Shown: positions 3,104-28,026 of the stretch, one piece after another
How the letters are laid out: every line of letters begins with the position of its first letter
Numbering within the stretch: position 1 is the stretch's first letter
Sequence record: OR455461.1
Reading direction: 5' to 3' (one strand)
Length of the DNA: 64,000 nt
DNA from: Staphylococcus phage AH12
Position numbers and translations under genes: made by a program
The notes under the pieces: model-generated
What the model was told of the DNA's origin: nothing
What the model saw: the letters and a program-made list of their open reading frames with translations, nothing else
Databases searched by the model: none

Positions 3104-3664
3104 TTATTTAAAATTATTTCTGACTAGATATTTTTTAACTTCTTTCTCAAACTCTATAGATAAATCTTCATAAAATTCTTTTTCTTCTTTAATATATTCC
3201 ATTAAAGCTTTTAAGTACATAATGTGATCAACTATAATTATCTTATTTAATGTTGTATTATAATATAAATATATTACATCATCTTTTGAAGAAAATTGAC
3301 TTAAAGTTTCTTGATTAGGTGTAAATAAATCTCTTTCTAACATATTGACAAAATCTTCAAAATTCTGGAACTTACCCGAATGTAAATCTAAAAATTCTTT
3401 TAATAAATTTATTAAATGATAATCAACAACGGAATGTCTAATGAAATTCTTTAAATCTTTTGACATTACTATCATGCTAACACCTTTTCTCATTAACTCA
3501 TGTTTGTAATTATTAAGTATATATGTTAAAACTTCATTTTCATCATTAACTTCATTATACATTCTTCTTTTATCATTAAAAGACATATCTTTTCTAATAA
3601 TTTCGTCAAAAGCCTTTCTATCTTTTTCCATTATATCTGCATTAAATATTTTTTCAATATACAT
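3104..3664 (-). CDS. hypothetical protein
   Basis: 186-aa ORF; AAAGGAGATTTTAG ATG. Confidence 0.5.
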   Translation of the reverse strand: MYIEKIFNADIMEKDRKAFDEIIRKDMSFNDKRRMYNEVNDENEVLTYILNNYKHELMRKGVSMIVMSKDLKNFIRHSVVDYHLINLLKEFLDLHSGKFQNFEDFVNMLERDLFTPNQETLSQFSSKDDVIYLYYNTTLNKIIIVDHIMYLKALMEYIKEEKEFYEDLSIEFEKEVKKYLVRNNFK

Positions 3665-3677
3665 CTAAAATCTCCTT

Positions 3678-5540
3678 TTATCTAAATATATTTTTAACTA
3701 ATTCTGATTTAAAACTCTTTCTCAATTTAGTAGATTTTTCTGGCATGTAATTATCTAAATAATCACATAAACCATTGCAGAACTCATTAATTGATAATCT
3801 ATTAATATTAATCTTGTCATATGATATAATTAATTCATTGACTTCAAAACTATATCTACCTTTCAGTTTCTTAGATATATTAGTTATTATAGTTTTAGCT
3901 ATTTTATCATATTTAATATCAAATACAACATCTATATCTAAATCATGTAATAATTCAATATTAATTCTATTTTCAAAATAATCATTTAAATCTTTAAAAT
4001 AATATTTATCAAAATTGATATCAATATCGTAAGTGAAATTATTAAATATAGTATTAATTATATCTATTTGATCTTCATTATCATTACCTTTATTGAATAT
4101 TAAAGGTGTAATAATATTACCTACGGATAGGTCAATATGGTTAATCTTACTTAATCCTTTTTGGTAGAAAATAGAATTAATATTCATTTTAATTCCAATC
4201 TCTATAACTTTTTTAATCTCCTTTTTATCCATTAATTTATTTATAATAACGCTATTATTAATTTCATTAATAATACGTTTTAATTTATAACTATTAGAAC
4301 ACATTATTAATTTAATTAATATATTAGAAATTTCAAATTCTTTTCTAGTAAGATTTTTCGGATCATAGAAATATTTAAATAGAGTATCATAATATTCTTT
4401 AGAACCAATTATACATCTTTGATTGGTTAAATATGATAATGATTTGAGTACTCTTGTTTTATTAATCATTTTATGTTTATTTAATTTATTCTTTTCTATA
4501 TAAATATCATTAATATAATGACCTAATAAATGATTACAATAAGGATCTCTATGTTCACTTGTAGATGAAATTGCTTGTATATTTTCTCTACTAGATACTA
4601 AATCTTTATCTCTGAAAGTATTTCTTCTAACAGTAATAATTTCATCATTAAATAAATCTATCAAAAGAATATTAGGTTTATAAATATCGTATAGAAATTC
4701 TTGTTTAATATCTTTATTAAAGCTATTATTCATTACTTTATTTATTAATATATAAATGAGATCTTCAAATTCATTAAAATATCTGTCTATTATCAATGAA
4801 AACAGATTATTCCCTGTTCCTTCTTTATAATCTATATATTTAGGCGATCTATAATATTCATGCTCATTAGTTAATACATTTAATAGACCTTGCAAATTTT
4901 CATTAGATTCTATTTTTGAACTTATATATTCTCTAACTAAGTTAATAAAATAATCATGTAAATTAATATTAGTATTTTTTATTTTAACACTACTCATTCT
5001 ATCTTTTGTTAAATATAATAATCTATAATAAGGAAATACTATATTTCTATTAAATTCATTTATATTCATACTAGATATTGATAAAGGATAATCTAAATTC
5101 ATAGATTTTAAATAAGTGATTACTATGCTAAAATATTCTATATCTGAAATATATTCGGTTATTACATTTCCTTGCATCTCTGTTCTTAGTTTTTCATTTT
5201 TATATTTGACTTCTAAAGTACTTAATAAATCTTTATATAAACTTCTTTCACGTGCGTCTAACTTACCTGATTTCAGTTGATCCTTTAAATATCTTATTGA
5301 TGTTTCTGAAGACATATATTTTTTATCATCATATATAAATTTTTCATATAAATCATCCATATAATTATAACTTATCTTATTTATTATTCCTATTGATTCA
5401 CTAAAATACTCTTCTAGAATATATTTAATTTTATTATCTTCAATATCAAATATATCAGATAACTTTAAATCAACACCTTCTAAATATTTAAAACTTTCTT
5501 TAATGTAGAACTCTAAACTTTCTGTCATTATCCAATTCAC
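3678..5540 (-). CDS. hypothetical protein (620 aa)
   Basis: Long uninterrupted ORF; AGGAGAGTGAATTGG ATA ATG. Confidence 0.55.
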   Translation of the reverse strand: MNWIMTESLEFYIKESFKYLEGVDLKLSDIFDIEDNKIKYILEEYFSESIGIINKISYNYMDDLYEKFIYDDKKYMSSETSIRYLKDQLKSGKLDARERSLYKDLLSTLEVKYKNEKLRTEMQGNVITEYISDIEYFSIVITYLKSMNLDYPLSISSMNINEFNRNIVFPYYRLLYLTKDRMSSVKIKNTNINLHDYFINLVREYISSKIESNENLQGLLNVLTNEHEYYRSPKYIDYKEGTGNNLFSLIIDRYFNEFEDLIYILINKVMNNSFNKDIKQEFLYDIYKPNILLIDLFNDEIITVRRNTFRDKDLVSSRENIQAISSTSEHRDPYCNHLLGHYINDIYIEKNKLNKHKMINKTRVLKSLSYLTNQRCIIGSKEYYDTLFKYFYDPKNLTRKEFEISNILIKLIMCSNSYKLKRIINEINNSVIINKLMDKKEIKKVIEIGIKMNINSIFYQKGLSKINHIDLSVGNIITPLIFNKGNDNEDQIDIINTIFNNFTYDIDINFDKYYFKDLNDYFENRINIELLHDLDIDVVFDIKYDKIAKTIITNISKKLKGRYSFEVNELIISYDKININRLSINEFCNGLCDYLDNYMPEKSTKLRKSFKSELVKNIFR

Positions 5541-5573
5541 TCTCCTTATTTATAAAAAATAATGATTTAACTA

Positions 5574-6194
5574 TTAAATAAAATTATCTTTTACTGCATA
5601 TTTATTCATTTCTTTAATTAATGATTCAACTATTTCTTCTTTTAATGAATCTAATAAAAACTTCTCTAAAGAATCTATAAATTGTTTGTATGTTAATTCT
5701 TTCCATTCTGATTTAATATTAATATATAAAGATCTTTGTCCTGAACTAAATGCTTCATATTCTTTATAAAATACTTTAGCAATTTCTTTGAATGTCTTCT
5801 TACTAATTATAGGTAATTCTTCTACATTATCTAAGAAGAAATAATATAGAGGATATACTTCATCTTCTGTATATATTTTAGAATCTATAGATATTTTTAT
5901 AGTATGTGCATCCAATTTTTCTTTACCACTATTGTTATACAGAGATATATCTCCTATTTCTAAATTATTTAAACTCATATCACTATTTTCCTCCATATCT
6001 TTAGATTTAGTAGAAGACGTTTTCCAAACTTCAGTAGTAGAAAAAAGATTATTTTGAGATGGAAGGTTATAATTTACTTTTTTTATATCTGTATGAACTC
6101 CAATATTATCTACATCTATATCAAATCTTTCAGCTAATTTTTTATATGTTTCCATAAAATCTTTATTAAAATCTCTATTAATTTTAATCACCAC
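5574..6194 (-). CDS. hypothetical protein
   Basis: 206-aa ORF. Confidence 0.45.
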   Translation of the reverse strand: MVIKINRDFNKDFMETYKKLAERFDIDVDNIGVHTDIKKVNYNLPSQNNLFSTTEVWKTSSTKSKDMEENSDMSLNNLEIGDISLYNNSGKEKLDAHTIKISIDSKIYTEDEVYPLYYFFLDNVEELPIISKKTFKEIAKVFYKEYEAFSSGQRSLYINIKSEWKELTYKQFIDSLEKFLLDSLKEEIVESLIKEMNKYAVKDNFI

Positions 6195-6248
6195 TTTTTA
6201 TTAAATAAGGAGTAATGATGAATTTAATCATCATTACTCCAATTATAT

Positions 6249-6626
6249 TTATTTTGAATCTTCTTTAATTTCTTTAACTAAATTATTTATTTCTGTAGAT
6301 GTTAAATCTTTAATATCATCTACATTTTCGAATTTTTCCATTAAGAACTCTAATTGATCTGGAGAAAGATCCATAATTGAATAAAGATCTTCTTCTTCTG
6401 CTTTATTGTAATCAATACTAACATTTAATGGACTAAAGTAAGCATTAAGTACTTTAGTGTTGTTATTTTGATATCTTTTTTCAAATGTAGTATTTAATTT
6501 AAAAGGATTACCTGTATATAACTCTACTAATAAACGTTTTCTTAAGTCTTCATTATTAGAGTACATATTAGTTAATTCATTAATAGCTTTGATAGATCCA
6601 CCGATCATCATGTTAGTTGTTTCCAT
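6249..6626 (-). CDS. possible terminal fragment (last exon) of RNAP beta-like subunit
   Basis: MMIGGSIKAINELTNMYS resembles beta FGGQRFGEMEVWALEAYG. It lies directly downstream of the intron array. GCGGTGAG ATG start context. Confidence 0.35.
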   Translation of the reverse strand: METTNMMIGGSIKAINELTNMYSNNEDLRKRLLVELYTGNPFKLNTTFEKRYQNNNTKVLNAYFSPLNVSIDYNKAEEEDLYSIMDLSPDQLEFLMEKFENVDDIKDLTSTEINNLVKEIKEDSK

Positions 6627-6654
6627 CTCACCGCAGTTATTCTAAATATTATTA

Positions 6655-6780
6655 TTTAGCTAGACTATATCATTACCATTTAAGGTAGAATATATTTAGT
6701 CGTTGAACACTAATTAAAGTGATGCTGATTAATTTAATAATCTCTCAGCAATTAATATTCTTTACATTTATACATTTCTA
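6655..6780 (-). mobile_element. mini group I intron-like element (copy A)
   Basis: Minus-strand reading gives AAUUGCUGAG (P-like), AAUCAGCAUC (Q-like), GUUCAACGACUAAAUAU (R-like), a hairpin, then GAUAUAGUCU (S-like); boundaries approximate. Confidence 0.55.
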
Positions 6781-6877
6781 TATAACGGAGCCTTTTATTT
6801 GACTCTGAGAGGATTGTTGTTTATTCTTGATCTGTAAAACTTAGACATTTATATTAACTATATTTATTTAAAAAATA

Positions 6878-6995
6878 GATTAGACTATATCATTACCATT
6901 TAAGGTAGAATATATTTAGTCGTTGAACCTCTTATTTGAGGATGCTGATTAATTCAATAATCTCTCAGCAATTAATATTCTTTACATACATATTA
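6878..6995 (-). mobile_element. mini group I intron-like element (copy B)
   Basis: Same P/Q/R/P8/S architecture; IGS-like GAAAUA sits 13 nt before the P3 strand GAAUAU. Confidence 0.55.
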
Positions 6996-7117
6996 TTTCT
7001 AATACATGGGACACAAAATTTATCCGGTGTTCTTGTGGGAATACCACTGTAATTATTAAAGTCAATTGATTTTGCACTTAATTTCTATTTTATTAATCTT
7101 TATAATATAATTTATAA

Positions 7118-7235
7118 AGTATAGACTATATCTTCATTCTATATTATAGAAGAACTATATTTAGTCGTTGAACACTATTTAAAGTGATGCTGATTATTTT
7201 ATTACTCTCAGCAATTAATAATTTAATAATTCTTT
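7118..7235 (-). mobile_element. mini group I intron-like element (copy C)
   Basis: Same architecture; P3 here is GAAUUAU/AUAGUUC, which covaries with other copies; P9-like hairpin CUUUAUAA...UUAUAAAG. Confidence 0.55.
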
Positions 7236-7283
7236 AATTTATATAAAGAACGGCAAATAATTTACCTGATGGTTCATGTTTTA

Positions 7284-8831
7284 CGAATCTATATTAACTT
7301 CATATAGATCCCAGACTATATCTTAAAGTCTATGAAGACCTTTCACTTATTTAGTCGTTGAAGCTCTTTAATTATATTTTCAATCTCTTTTAAATGGTCT
7401 TGTTTATAGTTTATTCTATAAAGAGGAATATTTTTATTGATACAATATTCATCTTTCATTTTATCTTTCATTCTAATCTCTTCTAATTTTTCTTTAGGAA
7501 ATCTGCTACTAGGATTTTTCCTAAAATGCTGTTCACCATCATATTCAATTAGTACATTATAATCTACTAAATAAAAATCAAATCTTAAATTTTGATTTAT
7601 TTTTAGATCTTCAAATGTTTTCTCAAACTCAACATTTGTATTCGTATCAATTAAATATTTTTCTATTTGACGGTGAGCTAATGAATTTGCATACTGTTTT
7701 GCACAAAAAGGACATTTATTTATAGAATCTTTAAAATATTCTGCTTTCATTTTAAAATTATTTCCACATTTTTTATGATGAAAATTGTAAATATTTTTAG
7801 TTCCCTTGAATTCATTATCTAGTATTAAATATTCATTTGAATTAAATTTTTTATTACATATTTCTAGAAATTCTTTTTTTGTTAAGAATTTATTCTCTAA
7901 GCTACAATGTGGACATTTATAATCATTATTTAACATATTATTTGCTAGCATATTAAAACTTCTGTTACATTTTTTATGAAGGAAATTATGTTTAGTTTTA
8001 ATTCCTTTAAACTTGTCATCTAATAATTCGTAATCATCATAATCTTTTCTATTTTCTTTCATTTTTTCATTAAATGACTTTTTATCGTATTTTAATAATT
8101 TAATTTTATCACAATTAGGACAAATAATAACATTATTTAAAAAACTTCCTCCGGTCATTTCAAATTCAGTTCCACAATCATCATGTTTAAATTTTGTTAT
8201 TTTAGAGAATCCATTATACTTTCCTAAAATAGAATACCCACTTATATTTTTCTCTTTTTTAGCCTTTTCTAAAAACTCTTCATTACTATATTTCACAGAG
8301 AAACAACAATTTGGGCATCGATTCATATTGTATAAAAATTCAGAACCTTTCATTGTAAAATATTTTCCACATTCTTCATGGTAAAACTTATGGTGTTTTT
8401 TAGTACTTTTAAAATCATCAATTAATTTATAACCTTCAGTACTTTTTCTTTTGTTTGCTTCTTCCATAAAAGTTTTATTATTGTATTTTAAACCATTTTC
8501 ACATTTAGGACATCTCTTAGAGTAATCTAAAAAACCTCTACCTGTCATTTCAAATTCAGTTCCACAATCAACATGTAATATTTTATGATTAAATTTATAA
8601 CCTTTATACTCTTCTAATAATTCATAATTTCCAATATTCTTTTCTTTTATTTTATTCATATATTCTTCATGTGTTAATTTTACCATTTATTTCCTCACCT
8701 TTCCAGACCAATAGAAAGGATTTTAATATAATTAAATTAGCATGCTGATTACTTTTAAAGCTTCTCAGCAATTAAAGTGATTTTTCATTTATTGTTACCA
8801 ATATAAGGAAGCTAAAACATAATTTGTCTTT
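7284..8831 (-). mobile_element. group I intron-like element carrying an endonuclease ORF (interrupts RNAP beta-like gene)
   Basis: The P/Q half is at about 8725-8790 (AUGCUGAUUA ... CUCAGCAAUUAA). The R/P8/S half is at 7311-7370. P9 hairpin GAUCUAUAU..AUAUAGAUUC is followed by G at 7284. The 447-aa ORF lies between the two halves and its C-terminus overlaps the R box. Confidence 0.5.
7343..8686 (-). CDS. intron-encoded zinc-ribbon-repeat protein with C-terminal PD-(D/E)xK (Vsr/DUF559-like) endonuclease domain; putative homing endonuclease
   Basis: Five repeats of an H-x2-CG-x2-F-x-M-...-CP-x-C zinc-ribbon unit; C-terminus RFDFYLVDYNVLIEYDGEQHF matches the Vsr/DUF559-type nuclease signature; the final codons (NLRQLNK) are encoded by the intron R box. 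Confidence 0.6.
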   Translation of the reverse strand: MVKLTHEEYMNKIKEKNIGNYELLEEYKGYKFNHKILHVDCGTEFEMTGRGFLDYSKRCPKCENGLKYNNKTFMEEANKRKSTEGYKLIDDFKSTKKHHKFYHEECGKYFTMKGSEFLYNMNRCPNCCFSVKYSNEEFLEKAKKEKNISGYSILGKYNGFSKITKFKHDDCGTEFEMTGGSFLNNVIICPNCDKIKLLKYDKKSFNEKMKENRKDYDDYELLDDKFKGIKTKHNFLHKKCNRSFNMLANNMLNNDYKCPHCSLENKFLTKKEFLEICNKKFNSNEYLILDNEFKGTKNIYNFHHKKCGNNFKMKAEYFKDSINKCPFCAKQYANSLAHRQIEKYLIDTNTNVEFEKTFEDLKINQNLRFDFYLVDYNVLIEYDGEQHFRKNPSSRFPKEKLEEIRMKDKMKDEYCINKNIPLYRINYKQDHLKEIENIIKELQRLNK

Positions 8832-9384
8832 ACTTCAGGTGATACAAATCTCCAACCATAAATGTTCTATTACTAACATCTAGTCGGTTTTTCTTAATAT
8901 TGTATTTATTGAATAAGTATCTGATTTGTTCAGATTCAATATTATCAAAGAAAGGTGCTTGATGAAGTACAATACCATTTTTAATAAAGTCTTCAATAGC
9001 TTCTTTAGTTTCTTCACTATCTAAACTATCAAATAATCTTACATAATTATCATAAGATACTTTATCTGCATCTTTGATATATTCTAATAAATATTCTTTC
9101 TGCTTATTAACATCATCTAACTTACTAATACGATGTCTAATAACGCTTGAAATATGATTTAATTCTAATTCCACTAATGCTGAAGGATTTCCTCTATTAA
9201 TAATACCCATATTATTATGAATTAAGTCTACTCTTTTCTTAATAGGAGTTTTATTATCTTTGGTGAAATCTTCTCCATCAAATTCAGTAATCATTGGCAT
9301 TTCATTATCTGGAACAATCTTAGCTACTACACCTTTTCCACCGTATCTTGTGCTTATTTTTGCATTTATGTTAATGAACTTCAT
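8830..9384 (-). CDS. rpoB-like: RNA polymerase beta-subunit fragment (exon c; real exon probably begins at 9362)
   Basis: KISTRYGGKGVVAKIVPDNEMPMI..GIINRGNPS matches the beta region [27 protein letters not shown]; it ends VGDLYHLK, comparable to VGYMYMLK. Confidence 0.7.
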   Translation of the reverse strand: MKFININAKISTRYGGKGVVAKIVPDNEMPMITEFDGEDFTKDNKTPIKKRVDLIHNNMGIINRGNPSALVELELNHISSVIRHRISKLDDVNKQKEYLLEYIKDADKVSYDNYVRLFDSLDSEETKEAIEDFIKNGIVLHQAPFFDNIESEQIRYLFNKYNIKKNRLDVSNRTFMVGDLYHLK

Positions 9385-9545
9385 AGACTTTACTAAGAAG
9401 ATCAGACTATATCATTACCTTCATATAAGGTAGAATATATTTAGTCGTTGAACACTATTTATAGTGATGCTGATTAATTTTATAATTCTCAGCAATTAAT
9501 ATTCTTTACATATAAATTTTCATTCATAAGGGACCTATTAATTTG
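9363..9545 (-). mobile_element. mini group I intron (183 nt) in RNAP beta-like gene
   Basis: The 5' exon ends GGAU and pairs with the IGS GUCC. Core boxes P, Q, R and S are present, with P3 GAAUAU/AUAUUC and P8 UACCU/AGGUA. The predicted join ...KKPLVHG|SKISTRYGGKGVV has exactly the same length as E. coli [25 protein letters not shown]. Confidence 0.6.
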
Positions 9546-25450: not shown

Positions 25451-25752
25451 TTATTCTTCTTGATCATAATCAGTTCTAGTATCTTTAAGTAAATCTGAAT
25501 CTATACCAGCACCTAATAAATAATAGTAAGTGGTATTCAAAGTAGTTTTATCAGAAAGATCGTCTGGTAAATCTTCTAGACGAGTATAACCATACATTGA
25601 AATGTTTTTATTCATTTCCTGTTTAGCATTCATAGAGTCTGAACGAGGACCCATTAATTCTCTTAATATATCTTGAGACCCAATTGCTCTTAATGCTGAA
25701 GCTTCCATATTTGATACAGAAGCTACCTTGTCCGCACCTGAGAGTTGCGATT
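25451..25752 (-). CDS. 3' exon of an intron-split gene (function unknown)
   Basis: The in-frame GC-rich coding segment QLSGADKVASVSN precedes the annotated Met with no start codon. It begins right after the P9/omega-G of intron copy 25.8k. Confidence 0.4.
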
Positions 25753-25900
25753 ATCCTATATATTTCTATATAAGTCAGACTATATCTTATACTCTTTATG
25801 AGTACCATTATATTTAGTCGTTGAACAATCAATTTGATTGATGCTGATTAACTTTAATTTTCTCAGCAATTAATAATATTATCATTATCATATTACTATA
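25746..25900 (-). mobile_element. mini group I intron-like element (copy 25.8k)
   Basis: P/Q/R/P8/S boxes; P9 hairpin CUUAUAUA-GAAA-UAUAUAGG; ends ...AUAAUCG before CAACUCUCAGGU. Confidence 0.5.
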
Positions 25901-26019
25901 ATAAGCGGCCAAAATTTTTTCATTAAAACCGGTTTTCATTGATCTCGAGGAAGCGTCTAGACTGTATGCGTTTTTCTTTGAGAGGAGCTGCTGTACAATA
26001 ACTTCATACACTATTTTTA

Positions 26020-26150
26020 ATTAGTGTTTAGACTATATATTCATCCTATTAGGAGTTTTAATTTTAGTCGTTGAACTTTATTAAGATTATTCACTTAATA
26101 TTAGATGCTGATTAGCTTCATAAACTTTCCCAGCAATTTAAAAAATTTTA
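26020..26150 (-). mobile_element. mini group I intron-like element (copy 26.0k)
   Basis: Variant boxes AAAUUGCUGGG (P), GCUAAUCAGCAUC (Q), GUUCAACGACUAAAAU (R), GAUAUAGUCU (S); P8 is UCCUA-U-UAGGA. Confidence 0.5.
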
Positions 26151-26226
26151 CATATACATTACTGCATAAGGAGGCTACAACAGTATTTAACCTCTTAACA
26201 TGTAAGTCATTTATCTTTACTATATT

Positions 26227-26354
26227 CATTTTATAGATGAGACTATATCTTCTTTGCCATATATTTAGTCGTTGAACAATTCAATTGATGCTGATCAACT
26301 TTAAATGTCTTTTCAGCAGTTAATATGATTTTAATTGAGCTCATACATAAGTTA
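26227..26354 (-). mobile_element. mini group I intron-like element (copy 26.2k)
   Basis: The upstream exon ends UUGGGU and pairs with the IGS GCUCAA. The P1 pair is identical to that of GyrB intron 2. The last annotated codons of ORF 26341-28026 (LTYV plus stop) are intronic. Confidence 0.5.
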
Positions 26355-28026
26355 ACCCAACTGGTACTTTATATCTAGTTCTTAATGGATCTTCTTTATT
26401 TCCATCATGTCTATAATAAACAAATTCATTCATAGGAACTTCTAATTTGTCTAAAGCTTCTTGTATTTGATTAATATCAGCTTCAGATTTATTAGGTAAA
26501 ACTTCTATATAGAAATTCTCATCACTATTTATGAAACGTTTAATATATCTCATAAATTCTTCATCATTCATTTCATCGTAAAATGATTTATAATTTCTCA
26601 TATTACTTTGATCTTTATCTAATGAAGATATAACATCAAGTATTTTATTTTGAATTTCTTGACGTTTCTTTTTATTGTCGCTTACTGCTTCATTTAAGAT
26701 TGATTCTGGTTCTAGAATAGTTTCATTTAAAGTATTTTCATTGAATTCCATAAAGAATCTTTCGATTATTTCTATATCACTAGATATTGCTTTTTGGAAT
26801 TCAAAACTAGCAGGAATTTCTTTAACACTAAATTTGAATTCTCCATTATCTTTAACATTCTCATCGAAACCAAATTTGTCTGCACTATATCTATTAATAT
26901 CTTCCATATTACCAAATATAATTGGACTATCAATACTAAAGTCTGCTAATACATATCCTTGTCCATTATATGACACAGGGAAAAGTTTTATTCTATTTTT
27001 AGATGGTTCTACATATGAAATTAACTCTATAGATTTGATCCCTAATTTCTTTTCCAATATTTTAAAATAAAGTAAAGATAATAGGTTAGGATTTATTCTT
27101 CCTTGATCTGGTTTAATAGAGAAGTTTTTATCTAATATCATTGAAGGAGTTACTGTATAATATACTTCTTCAGATTTATCTTCAGTAAATACAGGTTTAG
27201 AATTTTTAGTTTTATTATATAGGTAATTAAAAACATCTAATTCATTTTCTAATTGATACTCATAAATTATATCATTTAATTTATTATCAAATTCATAGTC
27301 TCCATAGAATTTATAGATGTCAGTTTCATTATATTTCAAAACTTCTTTATTTGTGAATAAAGGTGAATTGAGTACATTATTCTCTGTAAATATTTTATTG
27401 TATATAATATCTTCTTTAGAATCTGAGAAAATATTATTTCCCATAGATTCTAAAACTTTTACTAAAGTTCTTAATTTAGCATCATTATAGAAATTATACT
27501 TATCTTTATTATAACTTACATATTCTTCAGAATTTAAATACTCACTAAAATCTTTTCTTTTAGTTGAATCTTTACTTAGAAATCTAACTTTAGTAACTTC
27601 TGTAAGCTTATCAATATCATTCAAAATAGTTTTAATACTGCCAGTATCGTTAATAACGATAGGATTTCCACCTTTATAATCTCCAGCATAATCTATTAAT
27701 ATATCTTCTTCTCTACTCTTTTGATTTTGAAGAACGATGAATCTAATTTGTGTATTATCATTAAAATACTTAATTAAACTAATATCAAACCAACAAGAAT
27801 TTCCTTTTTTATCATGAATTTGATTTTCATTATAATCTAATAGAAAATCTATTTCTGATTCAGTGACTAATATTTCTGTTTCATTCACTAAATCAATAGG
27901 AGATTTAATTACACTGATATTATCTGATCCACATTCAGAACAAGATGTAATATCTTCATTATATTCTTGAACTTTGCTACAAGAATTACATCTAACGTAT
28001 TTATTTTTCAATTCATTCACTTCCAA
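26341..28026 (-). CDS. zinc-ribbon-containing protein, probable 5' exon of an intron-split gene
   Basis: 561 aa; N-terminal CNSCS...CSECGS zinc ribbon; the C-terminus runs into an intron (coding probably ends at 26355). Confidence 0.5.
   Translation of the reverse strand: MEVNELKNKYVRCNSCSKVQEYNEDITSCSECGSDNISVIKSPIDLVNETEILVTESEIDFLLDYNENQIHDKKGNSCWFDISLIKYFNDNTQIRFIVLQNQKSREEDILIDYAGDYKGGNPIVINDTGSIKTILNDIDKLTEVTKVRFLSKDSTKRKDFSEYLNSEEYVSYNKDKYNFYNDAKLRTLVKVLESMGNNIFSDSKEDIIYNKIFTENNVLNSPLFTNKEVLKYNETDIYKFYGDYEFDNKLNDIIYEYQLENELDVFNYLYNKTKNSKPVFTEDKSEEVYYTVTPSMILDKNFSIKPDQGRINPNLLSLLYFKILEKKLGIKSIELISYVEPSKNRIKLFPVSYNGQGYVLADFSIDSPIIFGNMEDINRYSADKFGFDENVKDNGEFKFSVKEIPASFEFQKAISSDIEIIERFFMEFNENTLNETILEPESILNEAVSDNKKKRQEIQNKILDVISSLDKDQSNMRNYKSFYDEMNDEEFMRYIKRFINSDENFYIEVLPNKSEADINQIQEALDKLEVPMNEFVYYRHDGNKEDPLRTRYKVPVGLTYV

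What the first reader, a model, noticed from the sequence alone, without database searches (positions are those of the whole stretch)
6627..8831. Composite intervening region after beta exon c: an ORF-bearing intron plus three tandem mini-introns; a conserved beta segment is unaccounted for
The P/Q half of an intron sits at 8725-8790 and the matching R/P8/S half at 7311-7370. The two halves flank a 447-aa ORF whose last codons are encoded by the R box. Free-standing intron ORFs in T-even phage introns often sit in this kind of arrangement. Three further complete intron-like copies follow at roughly 220-nt spacing (7118-7235, 6878-6995, 6655-6780). The next ORF, 6249-6626, resembles the terminal beta region around GGQRFGEMEVWALEAY. 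Between exon c (ends like YMLK) and that ORF, the highly conserved beta segment [24 protein letters not shown] is missing. I could not find a clean micro-exon for it in the spacers. One frame of the 7236-7283 spacer gives KHEPSGKLFAV. One frame of the 6996-7117 spacer gives SGIPTRTPDKF, weakly reminiscent of [12 protein letters not shown]. Either micro-exons, a twintron-like arrangement or a degenerate or alternative structure is present.
Basis: inference. Interest (0 to 1): 0.6.

Follow-up and report, generated by a model that had tools for sequence, protein, structure and literature searches.

The report
Four tandem introns split polymerase gene
A Staphylococcus jumbo-phage RNA polymerase gene is cut by six small group I introns, and the protein segment that seemed to be missing is encoded in three tiny exons (20, 63 and 44 bases) between four of them; a close relative already carries this layout in its GenBank record.

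Summary
The window comes from an AR9-like Staphylococcus jumbo phage; its closest relatives are Machias and PB50.

On the minus strand, 10814-6249 encodes the C-terminal half of the non-virion RNA polymerase beta subunit. It is split into 7 exons by 6 group I introns:
- I1, 173 nt
- I2, 183 nt
- I3, 1548 nt, with a 447-aa endonuclease ORF in the P6 loop
- I4, 179 nt
- I5, 176 nt
- I6, 168 nt

The "missing" segment lies in micro-exons 7283-7264, 7084-7022 and 6845-6802. They read (L)KHEPSGK, LSAKSIDFNNYSGIPTRTPD and SKFYRSRINNNPLR(V).

The spliced 712-aa product has these properties:
- It is colinear base for base with the uninterrupted PB50 allele.
- It aligns end to end with intronless homologues.
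- It matches the solved AR9 subunit (E = 2e-135).

Every junction is U|...G|. The P3-P8 core covaries: 94.9% of cells are paired, against 27-47% in slid controls. Rfam's group I model matches the five mini-introns but below its threshold (16-42 bits, cutoff 50).

It is not a twintron, not degenerate and not a sequencing error. Machias is already annotated with five of these introns, and Twort orf142 is a precedent with a 23-nt exon. The intron RNAs themselves, a 144-185 nt family, appear not to have been characterised. Splicing is inferred, not shown.

The parts
10287..10814 (-). Exon 1 of the nvRNAP beta C-terminal-half gene (aa 1-176)
   Evidence: Spliced mapping against intronless DC4; ORF
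10114..10286 (-). Intron I1, ORF-less group I mini-intron, 173 nt (site A)
   Evidence: Junction GAAT|aaaatt...ctatag|GAAGAT. CM hit 122.3 bits. Rfam RF00028 18.3 bits, E = 0.046. Present in PB50, absent from Machias.
9546..10113 (-). Exon 2
9363..9545 (-). Intron I2, ORF-less group I mini-intron, 183 nt (site B)
   Evidence: Junction GGAT|caaatt...aaatg|CAAAAA. CM hit 123.2 bits. RF00028 42.3 bits, E = 2.9e-9.
8832..9362 (-).
7284..8831 (-). Intron I3, ORF-bearing group I intron, 1548 nt (site D). P1-P6 5' half at 8831 to about 8735; P6'-P9 3' half at about 7370-7284.
   Evidence: Junction GAAGT|aaagac...gattcg|TAAAAC. P1 GAAGU/GCUUC, P2 with GUAA loop, P9 hairpin. P3 CACUU/AAGUG is compensatory relative to the minis. 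8-bp P10 AUGUUUUA/UAAAACAU read from the sequence. Same intron at the same site in Machias.
7343..8686 (-). Intron-encoded endonuclease ORF, 447 aa, in the P6 loop. Five Zn-ribbon repeats plus a C-terminal nuclease domain. SD aggtgagga at 8700-8692. The last 8 codons overlap P6'/P7/P3'.
   Evidence: PHROG 559 'HNH endonuclease' E = 1.3e-69, plus 'homing endonuclease' and 'intron encoded nuclease' PHROGs. Zn_ribbon_8. DUF5889 26.9 bits and DUF2726 E = 0.0037 on the C-terminal domain. 38% identical to the Machias HEG, but the last 23 aa are identical.
7264..7283 (-). Micro-exon E4, 20 nt, TAAAACATGAACCATCAGGT, encodes (L)KHEPSG
   Evidence: Colinear with PB50 and DC4. Seven synonymous differences from PB50 cluster here.
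7085..7263 (-). Intron I4, mini-intron, 179 nt (site E)
   Evidence: Junction CAGGT|aaatta...aaatag|AAATTA. CM hit 94 bits. RF00028 16.3 bits, E = 0.13. Present in Machias, absent from PB50.
7022..7084 (-). Micro-exon E5, 63 nt, encodes KLSAKSIDFNNYSGIPTRTPD
6846..7021 (-). Intron I5, mini-intron, 176 nt (site G)
   Evidence: Junction CGGAT|aaattt...aaatg|TCTAAG. CM hit 121.2 bits. RF00028 33.6 bits, E = 8.8e-7.
6802..6845 (-). Micro-exon E6, 44 nt, encodes SKFYRSRINNNPLR(V)
6634..6801 (-). Intron I6, mini-intron, 168 nt (site H)
   Evidence: Junction AGAGT|caaata...aactg|CGGTGA. MFE fold shows P1, P2 (GAAA loop), P4-P5, P7/P8 and P9, z = -4.0. CM hit 122.5 bits. RF00028 42.4 bits, E = 2e-9, full model 1-253. 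Present in Machias, PB50, MarsHill and Madawaska.
6249..6633 (-). Exon 7 (terminal), begins (V)GEMETTNMMIGGS...; includes the stop codon

Best explanation
Minus strand 10814-6249 is one gene, the C-terminal half of the beta subunit of the phage's non-virion multisubunit RNA polymerase. Six group I introns of one closely related family interrupt it.

Five introns are ORF-less and very compact (168-183 nt: P1, P2, P3, P4, P5, P6, P7, P8, P9, no peripheral domains). The sixth (I3) has the same core, with a homing-endonuclease ORF looped out of P6.

They leave micro-exons of 20, 63 and 44 nt.

Proposed mechanism:
1. The gene is transcribed as one precursor.
2. Each intron folds on its own and pairs its internal guide sequence with the 3-5 nt that precede its own 5' splice-site U.
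3. Each is removed by the usual two guanosine-initiated transesterifications, ending at its terminal G.
4. Six precise excisions restore a 712-aa reading frame.

Shown from sequence and comparison: the exon map, the intron core fold, and the presence/absence polymorphism of the introns among sister phages.

Inferred, not shown:
- that splicing occurs, and whether it is truly protein-independent;
- that the endonuclease drives homing;
- that the ORF-less neighbours I4 and I5 travel with I3 by co-conversion.
For: Gene identity and exon map
- The spliced product is 2139 nt with a single terminal stop.
- Exons E3-E6 joined are 658 nt and align without a gap to the 658-nt uninterrupted stretch of PB50. 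In the last 200 nt, 189 bases are identical.
- The protein is colinear with intronless DC4, S6, PALS_2 and SA1.
- It matches AR9 nvRNAP chain 7S00_C over residues 15-664, E = 2.2e-135, straight through the micro-exon region. It also matches E. coli beta 1050-1312.
- It hits Pfam RNA_pol_Rpb2_6 above its cutoff.
- The micro-exon-encoded stretch is contiguous in AR9, PBS1, BpSp and phiR1-37.

Splice sites
- In all six introns, and in two more in gyrB, the 5' exon ends in U and the intron ends in G at the positions required by colinearity.
- G is only about 14% of this strand, by my calculation from the GC content and skew.

Intron structure
- P1 hairpins containing the splice-site U.G, P2 hairpins (GAAA or GUAA loops in 5 of 6) and P9 hairpins are predicted for every intron.
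- On 26 copies, 94.9% of cells are paired, against 27-47% when partners are slid. Seventeen of 30 pairs show double changes. P3, P5, P6 and P8 covary and P7 is invariant.
- Rfam RF00028 aligns full length to each mini: I6 42.4, I2 42.3, I5 33.6, I1 18.3 and I4 16.3 bits.

Mobility
- Site occupancy differs among six related phages. D, E and G are present together in the window and Machias, and all three are absent from PB50, MarsHill and Madawaska.
- The family has 10-33 copies in five genomes and none in DC4, S6, PALS_2 or SA1.
- Seven synonymous differences from PB50 fall within 13 nt of micro-exon E4, with none in the preceding 185 nt.

Other
- The ORF matches phage intron/homing endonuclease families.
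- Machias is annotated with a 6-piece join for this gene.
Against: - There is no RNA evidence. Splicing is inferred.
- All Rfam scores are below the family's gathering threshold of 50 bits. Nothing is reported at gathering or in a 6-kb E-value scan.
- The exon part of P1 is only 3-5 bp. In a shuffling test it is individually unconvincing: 16-58% of shuffles do as well for five of the six introns.
- P10 is clear only for I1, I3 and I4 (read by hand).
- The covariation alignment was fitted to the model. Many copies are orthologues or recent paralogues, so the counts overstate independent events.
- With 4-bp P5, P6 and P8 and about 75% A+U, autonomous folding is not guaranteed. A protein cofactor may be needed.
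Confidence: 0.9

Rival explanations
1. Tandem, near-identical introns do not always act independently. The halves of neighbouring introns could assemble hybrid ribozymes, or use each other's splice sites. This would give exon-skipped isoforms lacking E4, E5 or E6, as a regulated or leaky output. This is a refinement of the best explanation, not an alternative to it.
For: - The I5 and I6 cores differ only at a few positions, in P5 and P6.
- I2 and I5 share the same guide sequence GUCC and exon tail GGAU.
- Exon skipping is documented for the 23-nt exon between the similar introns 2 and 3 of Twort orf142, and for engineered tandem introns (PMC10136302).
- SIOphi polymerase transcripts skip an exon (PMC11878797).
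Against: - Skipping E4 (20 nt) or E6 (44 nt) shifts the frame.
- Skipping E5 removes 21 conserved residues.
- The guide sequences of adjacent introns differ (GCUUC, GCC, GUCC, GCUC). In the engineered system that was enough to enforce exon inclusion.
Confidence: 0.15
2. The gene is a decaying pseudogene, or a set of separately translated fragments. The repeats would be intron relics, or non-intronic repeats such as MITE-like elements or terminators, that are not removed from the RNA.
For: - Rfam gathering finds no intron.
- PB50 annotators called the pieces as separate CDSs.
- The pieces 10263-10814, 9538-10074, 8830-9384 and 6249-6626 are open ORFs on their own.
Against: - The micro-exons have no start codon, yet they keep frame and sequence with intronless homologues.
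- Differences from PB50 inside E4 are all synonymous.
- The homologous region is one continuous chain in the solved AR9 enzyme.
- The core helices covary.
- The same arrangement is conserved at 94-99% identity in Machias.
Confidence: 0.03
3. Twintron or nested arrangement: mini-introns inserted inside a larger intron that spans 8831-6634, removed stepwise.
For: The intron cores lie close together.
Against: The sequences between the cores (7283-7264, 7084-7022, 6845-6802) are present, in order and in frame, in the uninterrupted alleles of PB50, DC4, S6, PALS_2, SA1 and AR9. They are therefore exons. Each intron has its own P1, terminal G and complete core.
Confidence: 0.02
4. Assembly or sequencing artefact: collapsed or duplicated repeats, or indels, in the 6.6-7.3 kb spacers.
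For: The repeats are highly similar. Korn et al. presume the DNA of these phages is uracil-substituted, which interferes with sequencing.
Against: An independently sequenced genome (Machias) has the same four introns with identical lengths of the three minis (179, 176, 168 nt) and the same micro-exons. The spliced frame is intact without any correction.
Confidence: 0.01

Closest known systems
nvRNAP beta-C gene of Staphylococcus phage Machias (MW349128, CPT_Machias_266; Korn et al., bioRxiv 10.1101/2020.12.14.422802)
   Same: It is the same gene. Introns sit at the same sites D, E, G and H, the three minis have the same lengths, and the micro-exons are the same. Machias is annotated as a 6-piece join predicted from protein alignment.
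   Different: - The window has six introns, not five. It carries sites A and B (shared with PB50) and lacks site C.
- Its intron-D endonuclease is a different, longer allele: 447 against 318 aa, 38% identity.
- The paper predicts exon numbers only. In the passages I read it does not describe intron class, structure or the repeat family.
Twort orf142 (tail tube gene), three group I introns with a 23-nt exon between introns 2 and 3
   Same: - It is a Staphylococcus phage gene with tandem, mutually similar, ORF-less group I introns separated by a micro-exon (PMC10136302).
- A Twortvirinae genome has a related core just downstream of its tail tube gene: 34.8 bits with my model, E = 7.9e-5.
   Different: - Here there are four consecutive introns and three micro-exons, six introns in all, in a polymerase gene.
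- The introns are much shorter and have no room for P7.1/P7.2 between P7 and P3'. That these helices mark subgroup IA2 is from my own knowledge.
- Exon skipping is documented for Twort and untested here.
Coxiella burnetii 23S rRNA gene, two group I introns flanking a 34-nt exon
   Same: A short exon lies between two group I introns (PMC10136302).
   Different: That is an rRNA gene with introns of different subgroups. This is a protein-coding gene with paralogous introns.
Intron-disrupted RNAP and replication genes of Bacillus jumbo phage AR9
   Same: It belongs to the same phage clade, and a similar repertoire of genes is disrupted (Korn et al.).
   Different: In AR9 the region homologous to the micro-exons is contiguous. 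I did not examine the AR9 introns.
T4 td/nrdB-type phage introns with an endonuclease ORF looped out of a peripheral helix
   Same: I3 has its ORF in the P6 loop with its own Shine-Dalgarno sequence. The ribozyme core is split into two halves around it. That T4 introns are arranged this way is from my own knowledge.
   Different: The ORF's 3' end overlaps P6', P7 and P3' of the core. The endonuclease has Zn-ribbon repeats plus a DUF5889/DUF2726-like domain, not GIY-YIG or a clear HNH domain.
Azoarcus tRNA-Ile intron, a compact group I intron with P2-P9 and no large peripheral domains
   Same: The minimal architecture is the same: P1-P9 with GNRA loops on P2. Azoarcus being about 205 nt is from my own knowledge, not checked here.
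   Different: The phage minis are 144-185 nt. They lie in mRNA, are about 75% A+U, and have 4-bp P5, P6 and P8. Some copies lack P8.

Membership tests
Group I intron (Rfam RF00028) | Conserved core helices P3-P8 with the P4 (P/Q) and P7 (R/S) sequence elements | tested here: met
   - P/Q and R patterns are found far above chance.
- On 26 copies 94.9% of cells are paired, and P3, P5, P6 and P8 covary.
- RNAalifold recovers P4, P5, P6, P7 and P8.
Group I intron (Rfam RF00028) | Covariance-model score at or above the curated gathering threshold (50 bits) | tested here: not met
   There is no hit at gathering. Scores are 42.4, 42.3, 33.6, 18.3 and 16.3 bits, with E from 2e-9 to 0.13, when short stretches are searched. 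The shortfall comes from large deletions in P5, P6 and P8 relative to the 253-position model (alignment).
Group I intron (Rfam RF00028) | 5' exon ends in U, paired with G of an internal guide sequence (P1) | tested here: inconclusive
   U is present at all six 5' splice sites, and a cognate G-initiated complement lies 9-20 nt into each intron. The helices are only 3-5 bp, and 16-58% of shuffles match them for five of the six introns.
Group I intron (Rfam RF00028) | Intron ends in G (omega-G), and excision restores the host reading frame exactly | tested here: met
   All six introns end in G. The spliced sequence is colinear with PB50 and gives a 712-aa ORF.
Group I intron (Rfam RF00028) | Guanosine-dependent self-splicing | not testable with these tools
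   This needs in vitro transcription and a GTP-labelling assay.
Subgroup IA2 (Twort / T4-like phage introns) | Extra helices P7.1/P7.2 between P7 and P3' (definition from my own knowledge) | tested here: not met
   Only about 3 nt (AAA/AAU) separate the P7 5' strand GACUA from P3' in all copies.
Twintron | One intron inserted within another, so that the inner one must be removed first | tested here: not met
   The spacers between cores are exon sequence in the intronless alleles. Each intron has its own complete core and termini.
Intron-encoded homing endonuclease | Recognisable nuclease domain of a known homing-endonuclease class | tested here: inconclusive
   - PHROG 559 ('HNH endonuclease') E = 1.3e-69, and the 'homing endonuclease' PHROG 9084 E = 6.9e-22.
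- Pfam gives only DUF5889 at 26.9 bits (cutoff 27.1) and DUF2726 at E = 0.0037.
- No solved relative was found.
- From the motif FDFYL...IEYDGEQH I suspect a DUF559/Vsr-like PD-(D/E)XK fold. This rests on my own knowledge and is untested.
Intron-encoded homing endonuclease | Cleaves the intronless allele near the insertion site and promotes homing | not testable with these tools
   The evidence is indirect only: presence/absence of the intron among sister phages, and a cluster of synonymous differences 8-20 nt downstream of site D in the intronless PB50 allele.
Multisubunit RNAP beta subunit (C-terminal half, jumbo-phage nvRNAP) | Homology across the whole spliced product, including the terminal exon | tested here: met
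   7S00_C matches at E = 2.2e-135 over residues 15-664. E. coli beta 1050-1312 matches at E = 1.1e-13. RNA_pol_Rpb2_6 scores 38.5 bits against a cutoff of 23.4.

The most novel reading that the evidence does not exclude
The ORF-less elements may form a distinct, ultra-compact subclass of group I intron. They are 144-185 nt here, and some copies lack P2 and/or P8. If so, they would be smaller than the classic minimal self-splicing examples.

The family has multiplied like a non-autonomous transposon to 10-33 copies per genome in one branch of Staphylococcus jumbo phages, and is absent from sister phages. Copies re-target new sites by changing 3-5 guide nucleotides.

The D-E-G cluster in the polymerase gene would then move as one cassette, driven by the single endonuclease in I3.
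Probability: 0.35. Interest if true: 0.65.

Novelty: new member of a known kind. Interest (0 to 1): 0.45.

Why it matters
An enzyme that, by analogy with AR9 (my own knowledge), the phage probably needs for its later transcription can be made only if six ribozymes each cut and join precisely. Four of them act within 127 nt of coding sequence. This is one of the densest arrays of self-splicing introns I am aware of.

It is also a natural test of how short an exon can be. The 20-nt exon must serve both as P10 partner of the upstream intron and as P1 partner of the downstream one. It also tests how near-identical tandem ribozymes avoid exon skipping.

In practical terms, standard annotation fails here. 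Rfam at gathering threshold sees nothing, and gene callers report four unrelated-looking fragments and drop 42 residues of a conserved part of the enzyme, as in the PB50 and LY01 records.

If the 144-185 nt RNAs self-splice, they would be attractive minimal ribozymes.

Tried and rejected
- Rfam at gathering on the whole window and at E <= 10 on 6 kb returned no intron. The hits appear only when stretches under 1 kb are searched. They were lost to the speed filters, not to score.
- Automatic refinement of junctions with 45-nt flanks was misled wherever a flank ran into the neighbouring intron. I fixed the junctions by hand and checked them against PB50.
- A shuffling test of guide-sequence complementarity proved weak, so I do not use P1 as primary evidence.
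- Hand curation of the four tandem introns of LY01 did not give clean U|...G| junctions for the first two. I left it unresolved.
- Literature searches for the smallest known group I intron were unproductive. The size comparison therefore rests on my own knowledge.
- The PDB sequence search with the endonuclease found nothing meaningful, and NCBIfam found only a Zn ribbon.
- A strict core pattern found one IMG/VR contig and no hit in 185,579 representative bacterial and archaeal genomes.
- I considered and rejected a twintron, a pseudogene, non-intronic repeats and an assembly artefact (see rival explanations).
Full report
**Source and gene**

The window is very A+T-rich (GC about 0.18-0.30). 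It comes from an AR9-like Staphylococcus jumbo phage. A 4.8-kb query around the finding matches only nine Staphylococcus jumbo phages. The best matches are Machias (94.5% identity, 71% covered) and PB50 (95.8%, 63% covered). In those records the region is annotated 'non-viral RNA polymerase beta subunit', next to a UvsX-like recombinase. Four relatives carry the gene as one uninterrupted ORF of 711-713 aa: DC4, S6, PALS_2 and SA1.

**Observation**

- The P...Q pattern AATTGCTGAGAR-N-AATCAGCATS occurs six times in the window, against 0.00 expected.
- The R box TTCAACGACTAAATA occurs eleven times, against 0.52 expected.
- The 447-aa ORF (8686-7343) lies between the two halves of one core. It ends inside the R box region.

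**Exon map**

I aligned the intronless DC4 coding sequence to the window with an intron-aware alignment. I then fixed each junction by reading the sequence. This gives seven exons and six introns on the minus strand:

| Element | Coordinates | Length |
|---|---|---|
| E1 | 10814-10287 | 528 nt |
| I1 | 10286-10114 | 173 nt |
| E2 | 10113-9546 | 568 nt |
| I2 | 9545-9363 | 183 nt |
| E3 | 9362-8832 | 531 nt |
| I3 | 8831-7284 | 1548 nt |
| E4 | 7283-7264 | 20 nt |
| I4 | 7263-7085 | 179 nt |
| E5 | 7084-7022 | 63 nt |
| I5 | 7021-6846 | 176 nt |
| E6 | 6845-6802 | 44 nt |
| I6 | 6801-6634 | 168 nt |
| E7 | 6633-6249 | 385 nt |

The joined sequence is 2139 nt with one terminal stop. Across the region in question it reads ...MVGDLYHLK|LKHEPSGK|LSAKSIDFNNYSGIPTRTPD|SKFYRSRINNNPLR|VGEMETTNMMIGGS....

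The best control is PB50. It is about 96% identical and lacks introns at sites D, E and G. Exons E3-E6 joined are 658 nt and align without any gap to the 658-nt continuous PB50 stretch. In the last 200 nt, 189 bases are identical.

The protein evidence agrees:
- The spliced protein matches the solved AR9 nvRNAP subunit (7S00 chain C) over residues 15-664 at E = 2.2e-135. The alignment runs straight through the micro-exon region. It also matches E. coli beta residues 1050-1312.
- It hits Pfam RNA_pol_Rpb2_6 above the cutoff.
- The micro-exon-encoded stretch is contiguous in AR9, PBS1, BpSp, phiR1-37 and a Listeria phage.

So the 'missing' segment is present. It is simply a divergent version of the bacterial motif. 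The terminal ORF alone has no Pfam hit, but it is the true C-terminus of the subunit.

**Why these are group I introns**

- At every junction the 5' exon ends in U and the intron ends in G. G makes up only about 14% of this strand, by my calculation.
- For each intron, folding predicts three hairpins: a P1 hairpin that contains the splice-site U paired with G, a P2 hairpin (GAAA loop in I1, I2, I5 and I6; GUAA in I3), and a P9 hairpin before the terminal G.
- I built a covariance model of the core (P3, P4, P5, P6, P8 as pairs). It finds ten mini cores plus the split I3 core in the window, and 16 more in the homologous loci of Machias, PB50, MarsHill, Madawaska and LY01. It finds none in the intronless loci.
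- On the 26 good copies, 94.9% of cells form standard pairs, against 27-47% when the 3' partners are slid by 1-3 columns. Seventeen of 30 pairs show changes on both sides. P3, P5, P6 and P8 all covary, P4 varies partly, and P7 is invariant.
- Caveats on that count: the alignment was fitted to the model, and many copies are orthologues or recent paralogues.
- Rfam's group I model aligns over its full length to each mini when short stretches are searched: I6 42.4 bits (E = 2e-9), I2 42.3, I5 33.6, I1 18.3, I4 16.3. All are below the 50-bit gathering score. The alignments show why: P5, P6 and P8 are cut down to 4-bp stubs.
- No space exists between P7 and P3' for the P7.1/P7.2 helices typical of Twort- and T4-type IA introns (the definition is from my own knowledge).

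**Weak points**

- The exon part of P1 is 3-5 bp: GUUC, GUCC, GCUUC, GCC, GUCC and GCUC against GAAU, GGAU, GAAGU, GGU, GGAU and GAGU. In a shuffling test this is not individually significant.
- P10 is clear for I3, where 8 bp (AUGUUUUA) pair with the first 8 nt of the 20-nt exon. I1 and I4 each have 4 bp. The other three are not convincing (read by hand).

**The ORF in I3**

The ORF has its own Shine-Dalgarno sequence and sits in the P6 loop. Its last eight codons overlap P6', P7 and P3'.
- It has five Zn-ribbon-like repeats and a C-terminal domain.
- It matches PHROG 559 ('HNH endonuclease', E = 1.3e-69) and other 'homing' or 'intron encoded' nuclease PHROGs.
- In Pfam the C-terminal domain matches only DUF5889 (26.9 bits, cutoff 27.1) and DUF2726. 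The catalytic class is therefore unresolved.
- Machias has the same intron at the same site, but with a 318-aa ORF only 38% identical. The exception is the last 23 residues, which overlap the ribozyme and are identical.

**Mobility**

Intron occupancy differs among six sister phages. Positions are DC4 nucleotide coordinates.

| Site | DC4 nt | Phages carrying an intron |
|---|---|---|
| A | 525 | window, PB50 |
| B | 1093 | window, PB50, MarsHill |
| C | 1115 | Machias, MarsHill, Madawaska |
| D | 1627 | window, Machias |
| E | 1647 | window, Machias |
| G | 1710 | window, Machias, LY01 |
| H | 1754 | all but LY01 |

- LY01 has its own set of four tandem minis.
- By blastn the family has 29, 21, 33, 10 and 12 copies in Machias, PB50, LY01, MarsHill and Madawaska. 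It has none in DC4, S6, PALS_2 or SA1.
- Outside these phages, a strict core pattern found one IMG/VR contig and no representative bacterial or archaeal genome.
- A weaker relative lies next to the tail tube gene of a Twort-like phage.
- Against PB50 the spliced gene differs at 69 of 2139 positions. Seven of these, all synonymous, fall in 13 nt of micro-exon E4. The preceding 185 nt have none.
- That pattern fits co-conversion with the introns, or a cleavage-resistant intronless allele. One of the changes (GGT against GGG) supplies the U needed at the I4 splice site.
- D, E and G are present or absent together in five of the six phages. From this I infer that the ORF-less I4 and I5 ride with the endonuclease-bearing I3.

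**Comparison with what is known**

- Korn et al. reported that many genes of Machias, MarsHill and Madawaska are intron-disrupted. They predicted exon numbers from protein alignments, and the Machias record joins six pieces for this gene. In the passages I read, intron class and structure are not described.
- Micro-exons between tandem group I introns have precedents: 23 nt in Twort orf142, where exon skipping occurs, and 34 nt in Coxiella 23S rRNA.
- The finding is therefore a new member of a known kind: a new genome with a new combination of six introns. Two features stand out. The density is unusual, with four introns in 127 nt of coding sequence. The RNA family is compact and abundant, and standard tools miss it.

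**Seen in passing**

- The same family interrupts the gyrB-like gene twice, including a 144-nt copy with no P2 and no P8.
- It also interrupts the virion RNAP beta gene three times in tandem, with a micro-exon of about 19 nt.

These copies are the most unusual objects in the window and deserve their own follow-up.

Noticed in passing
window 38082-38225 (minus strand): A 144-nt intron of the same family lies in the gyrB-like gene, exactly between GLG and EVN of the intronless S6 gyrB. It ends U|...G| and scores 27.7 bits on RF00028 (E = 7e-5). It has no room for P2 and no P8 hairpin: P3' is joined to P7' by CAAAGAA. The MarsHill and LY01 gyrB introns also have P8 reduced to about 2 bp. A group I core without P8 would be unusual if it is active.
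   Followed up: partly
window 38820-38996 (minus strand): This is the first gyrB intron, 177 nt, of the same family (RF00028 35.4 bits). The gyrB-like gene is therefore split into three exons: 40511-38997, 38819-38226 and 38081-37913.
   Followed up: partly
window 25700-26345 (minus strand): Three more tandem mini-intron cores (26239-26335, 26029-26152, 25776-25885) follow the virion RNAP beta N-terminal ORF (26341-28026). A micro-exon of about 19 nt, ACTTACATGTTAAGAGGT(T), encodes YLHVKRL of the S6 homologue. Machias joins only three pieces here although three cores are present, so an exon may be missing from that annotation. The first 5' splice site has no obvious U.G pairing.
   Followed up: partly
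window 28173-31727 (minus strand): The 1184-aa gyrA-like ORF contains an intein-like insert (…SRYCLTGNH…FIHHNTEMRL…). This agrees with the LAGLIDADG intein reported for MarsHill gp228 by Korn et al.
   Followed up: no
window 7264-7283 compared with L002 (PB50) 3140-3797: Seven synonymous differences from PB50 cluster within 13 nt of the 20-nt micro-exon. The background is 3.2%, and the 185 nt upstream have none. Possible causes are co-conversion, a cleavage-resistant intronless allele, or selection for P1/P10 pairing.
   Followed up: partly
window 7343-8686 compared with L001 (Machias) 3617-4573: The same intron at the same site carries very different endonuclease alleles: 447 aa with five Zn-ribbon repeats against 318 aa with three, 38% identity. 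The last 23 residues overlap the ribozyme core and are identical. The ORF seems to evolve or be exchanged independently of the ribozyme.
   Followed up: partly
all 26 family copies (window, L001-L003, L007, L008): A GAAA loop on P2 goes with the P8 hairpin CUACCUUAAAUGGUA, which resembles a tetraloop receptor. Copies with other P8 sequences have GUAA, GCAA, GUGA or non-GNRA loops. This suggests an L2-P8 tertiary contact that holds the compact fold together. The copies are not independent.
   Followed up: partly
whole genomes of related phages: The mini-intron family has 10-33 blastn-detectable copies in Machias, PB50, LY01, MarsHill and Madawaska, and none in DC4, S6, PALS_2 or SA1. Korn et al. 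note a retron-like reverse transcriptase of unknown role in their three phages. A link to intron spread by reverse splicing is pure speculation.
   Followed up: no
window 5500-11500 compared with 6620-7300: The RF00028 matches with E = 2e-9 are reported only when under 1 kb is searched. A 6-kb scan at E <= 10 reported none, so the speed filters drop these A+U-rich compact introns. Genome-scale Rfam annotation of such phages will under-report introns.
   Followed up: yes
L008 (LY01) 4738-5525: LY01 has four tandem mini-introns in the same part of the gene, with apparently even shorter exons, for example CCATCAGGT (9 nt). I could not place clean junctions for the first two. The record annotates only fragments as hypothetical proteins.
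   Followed up: partly
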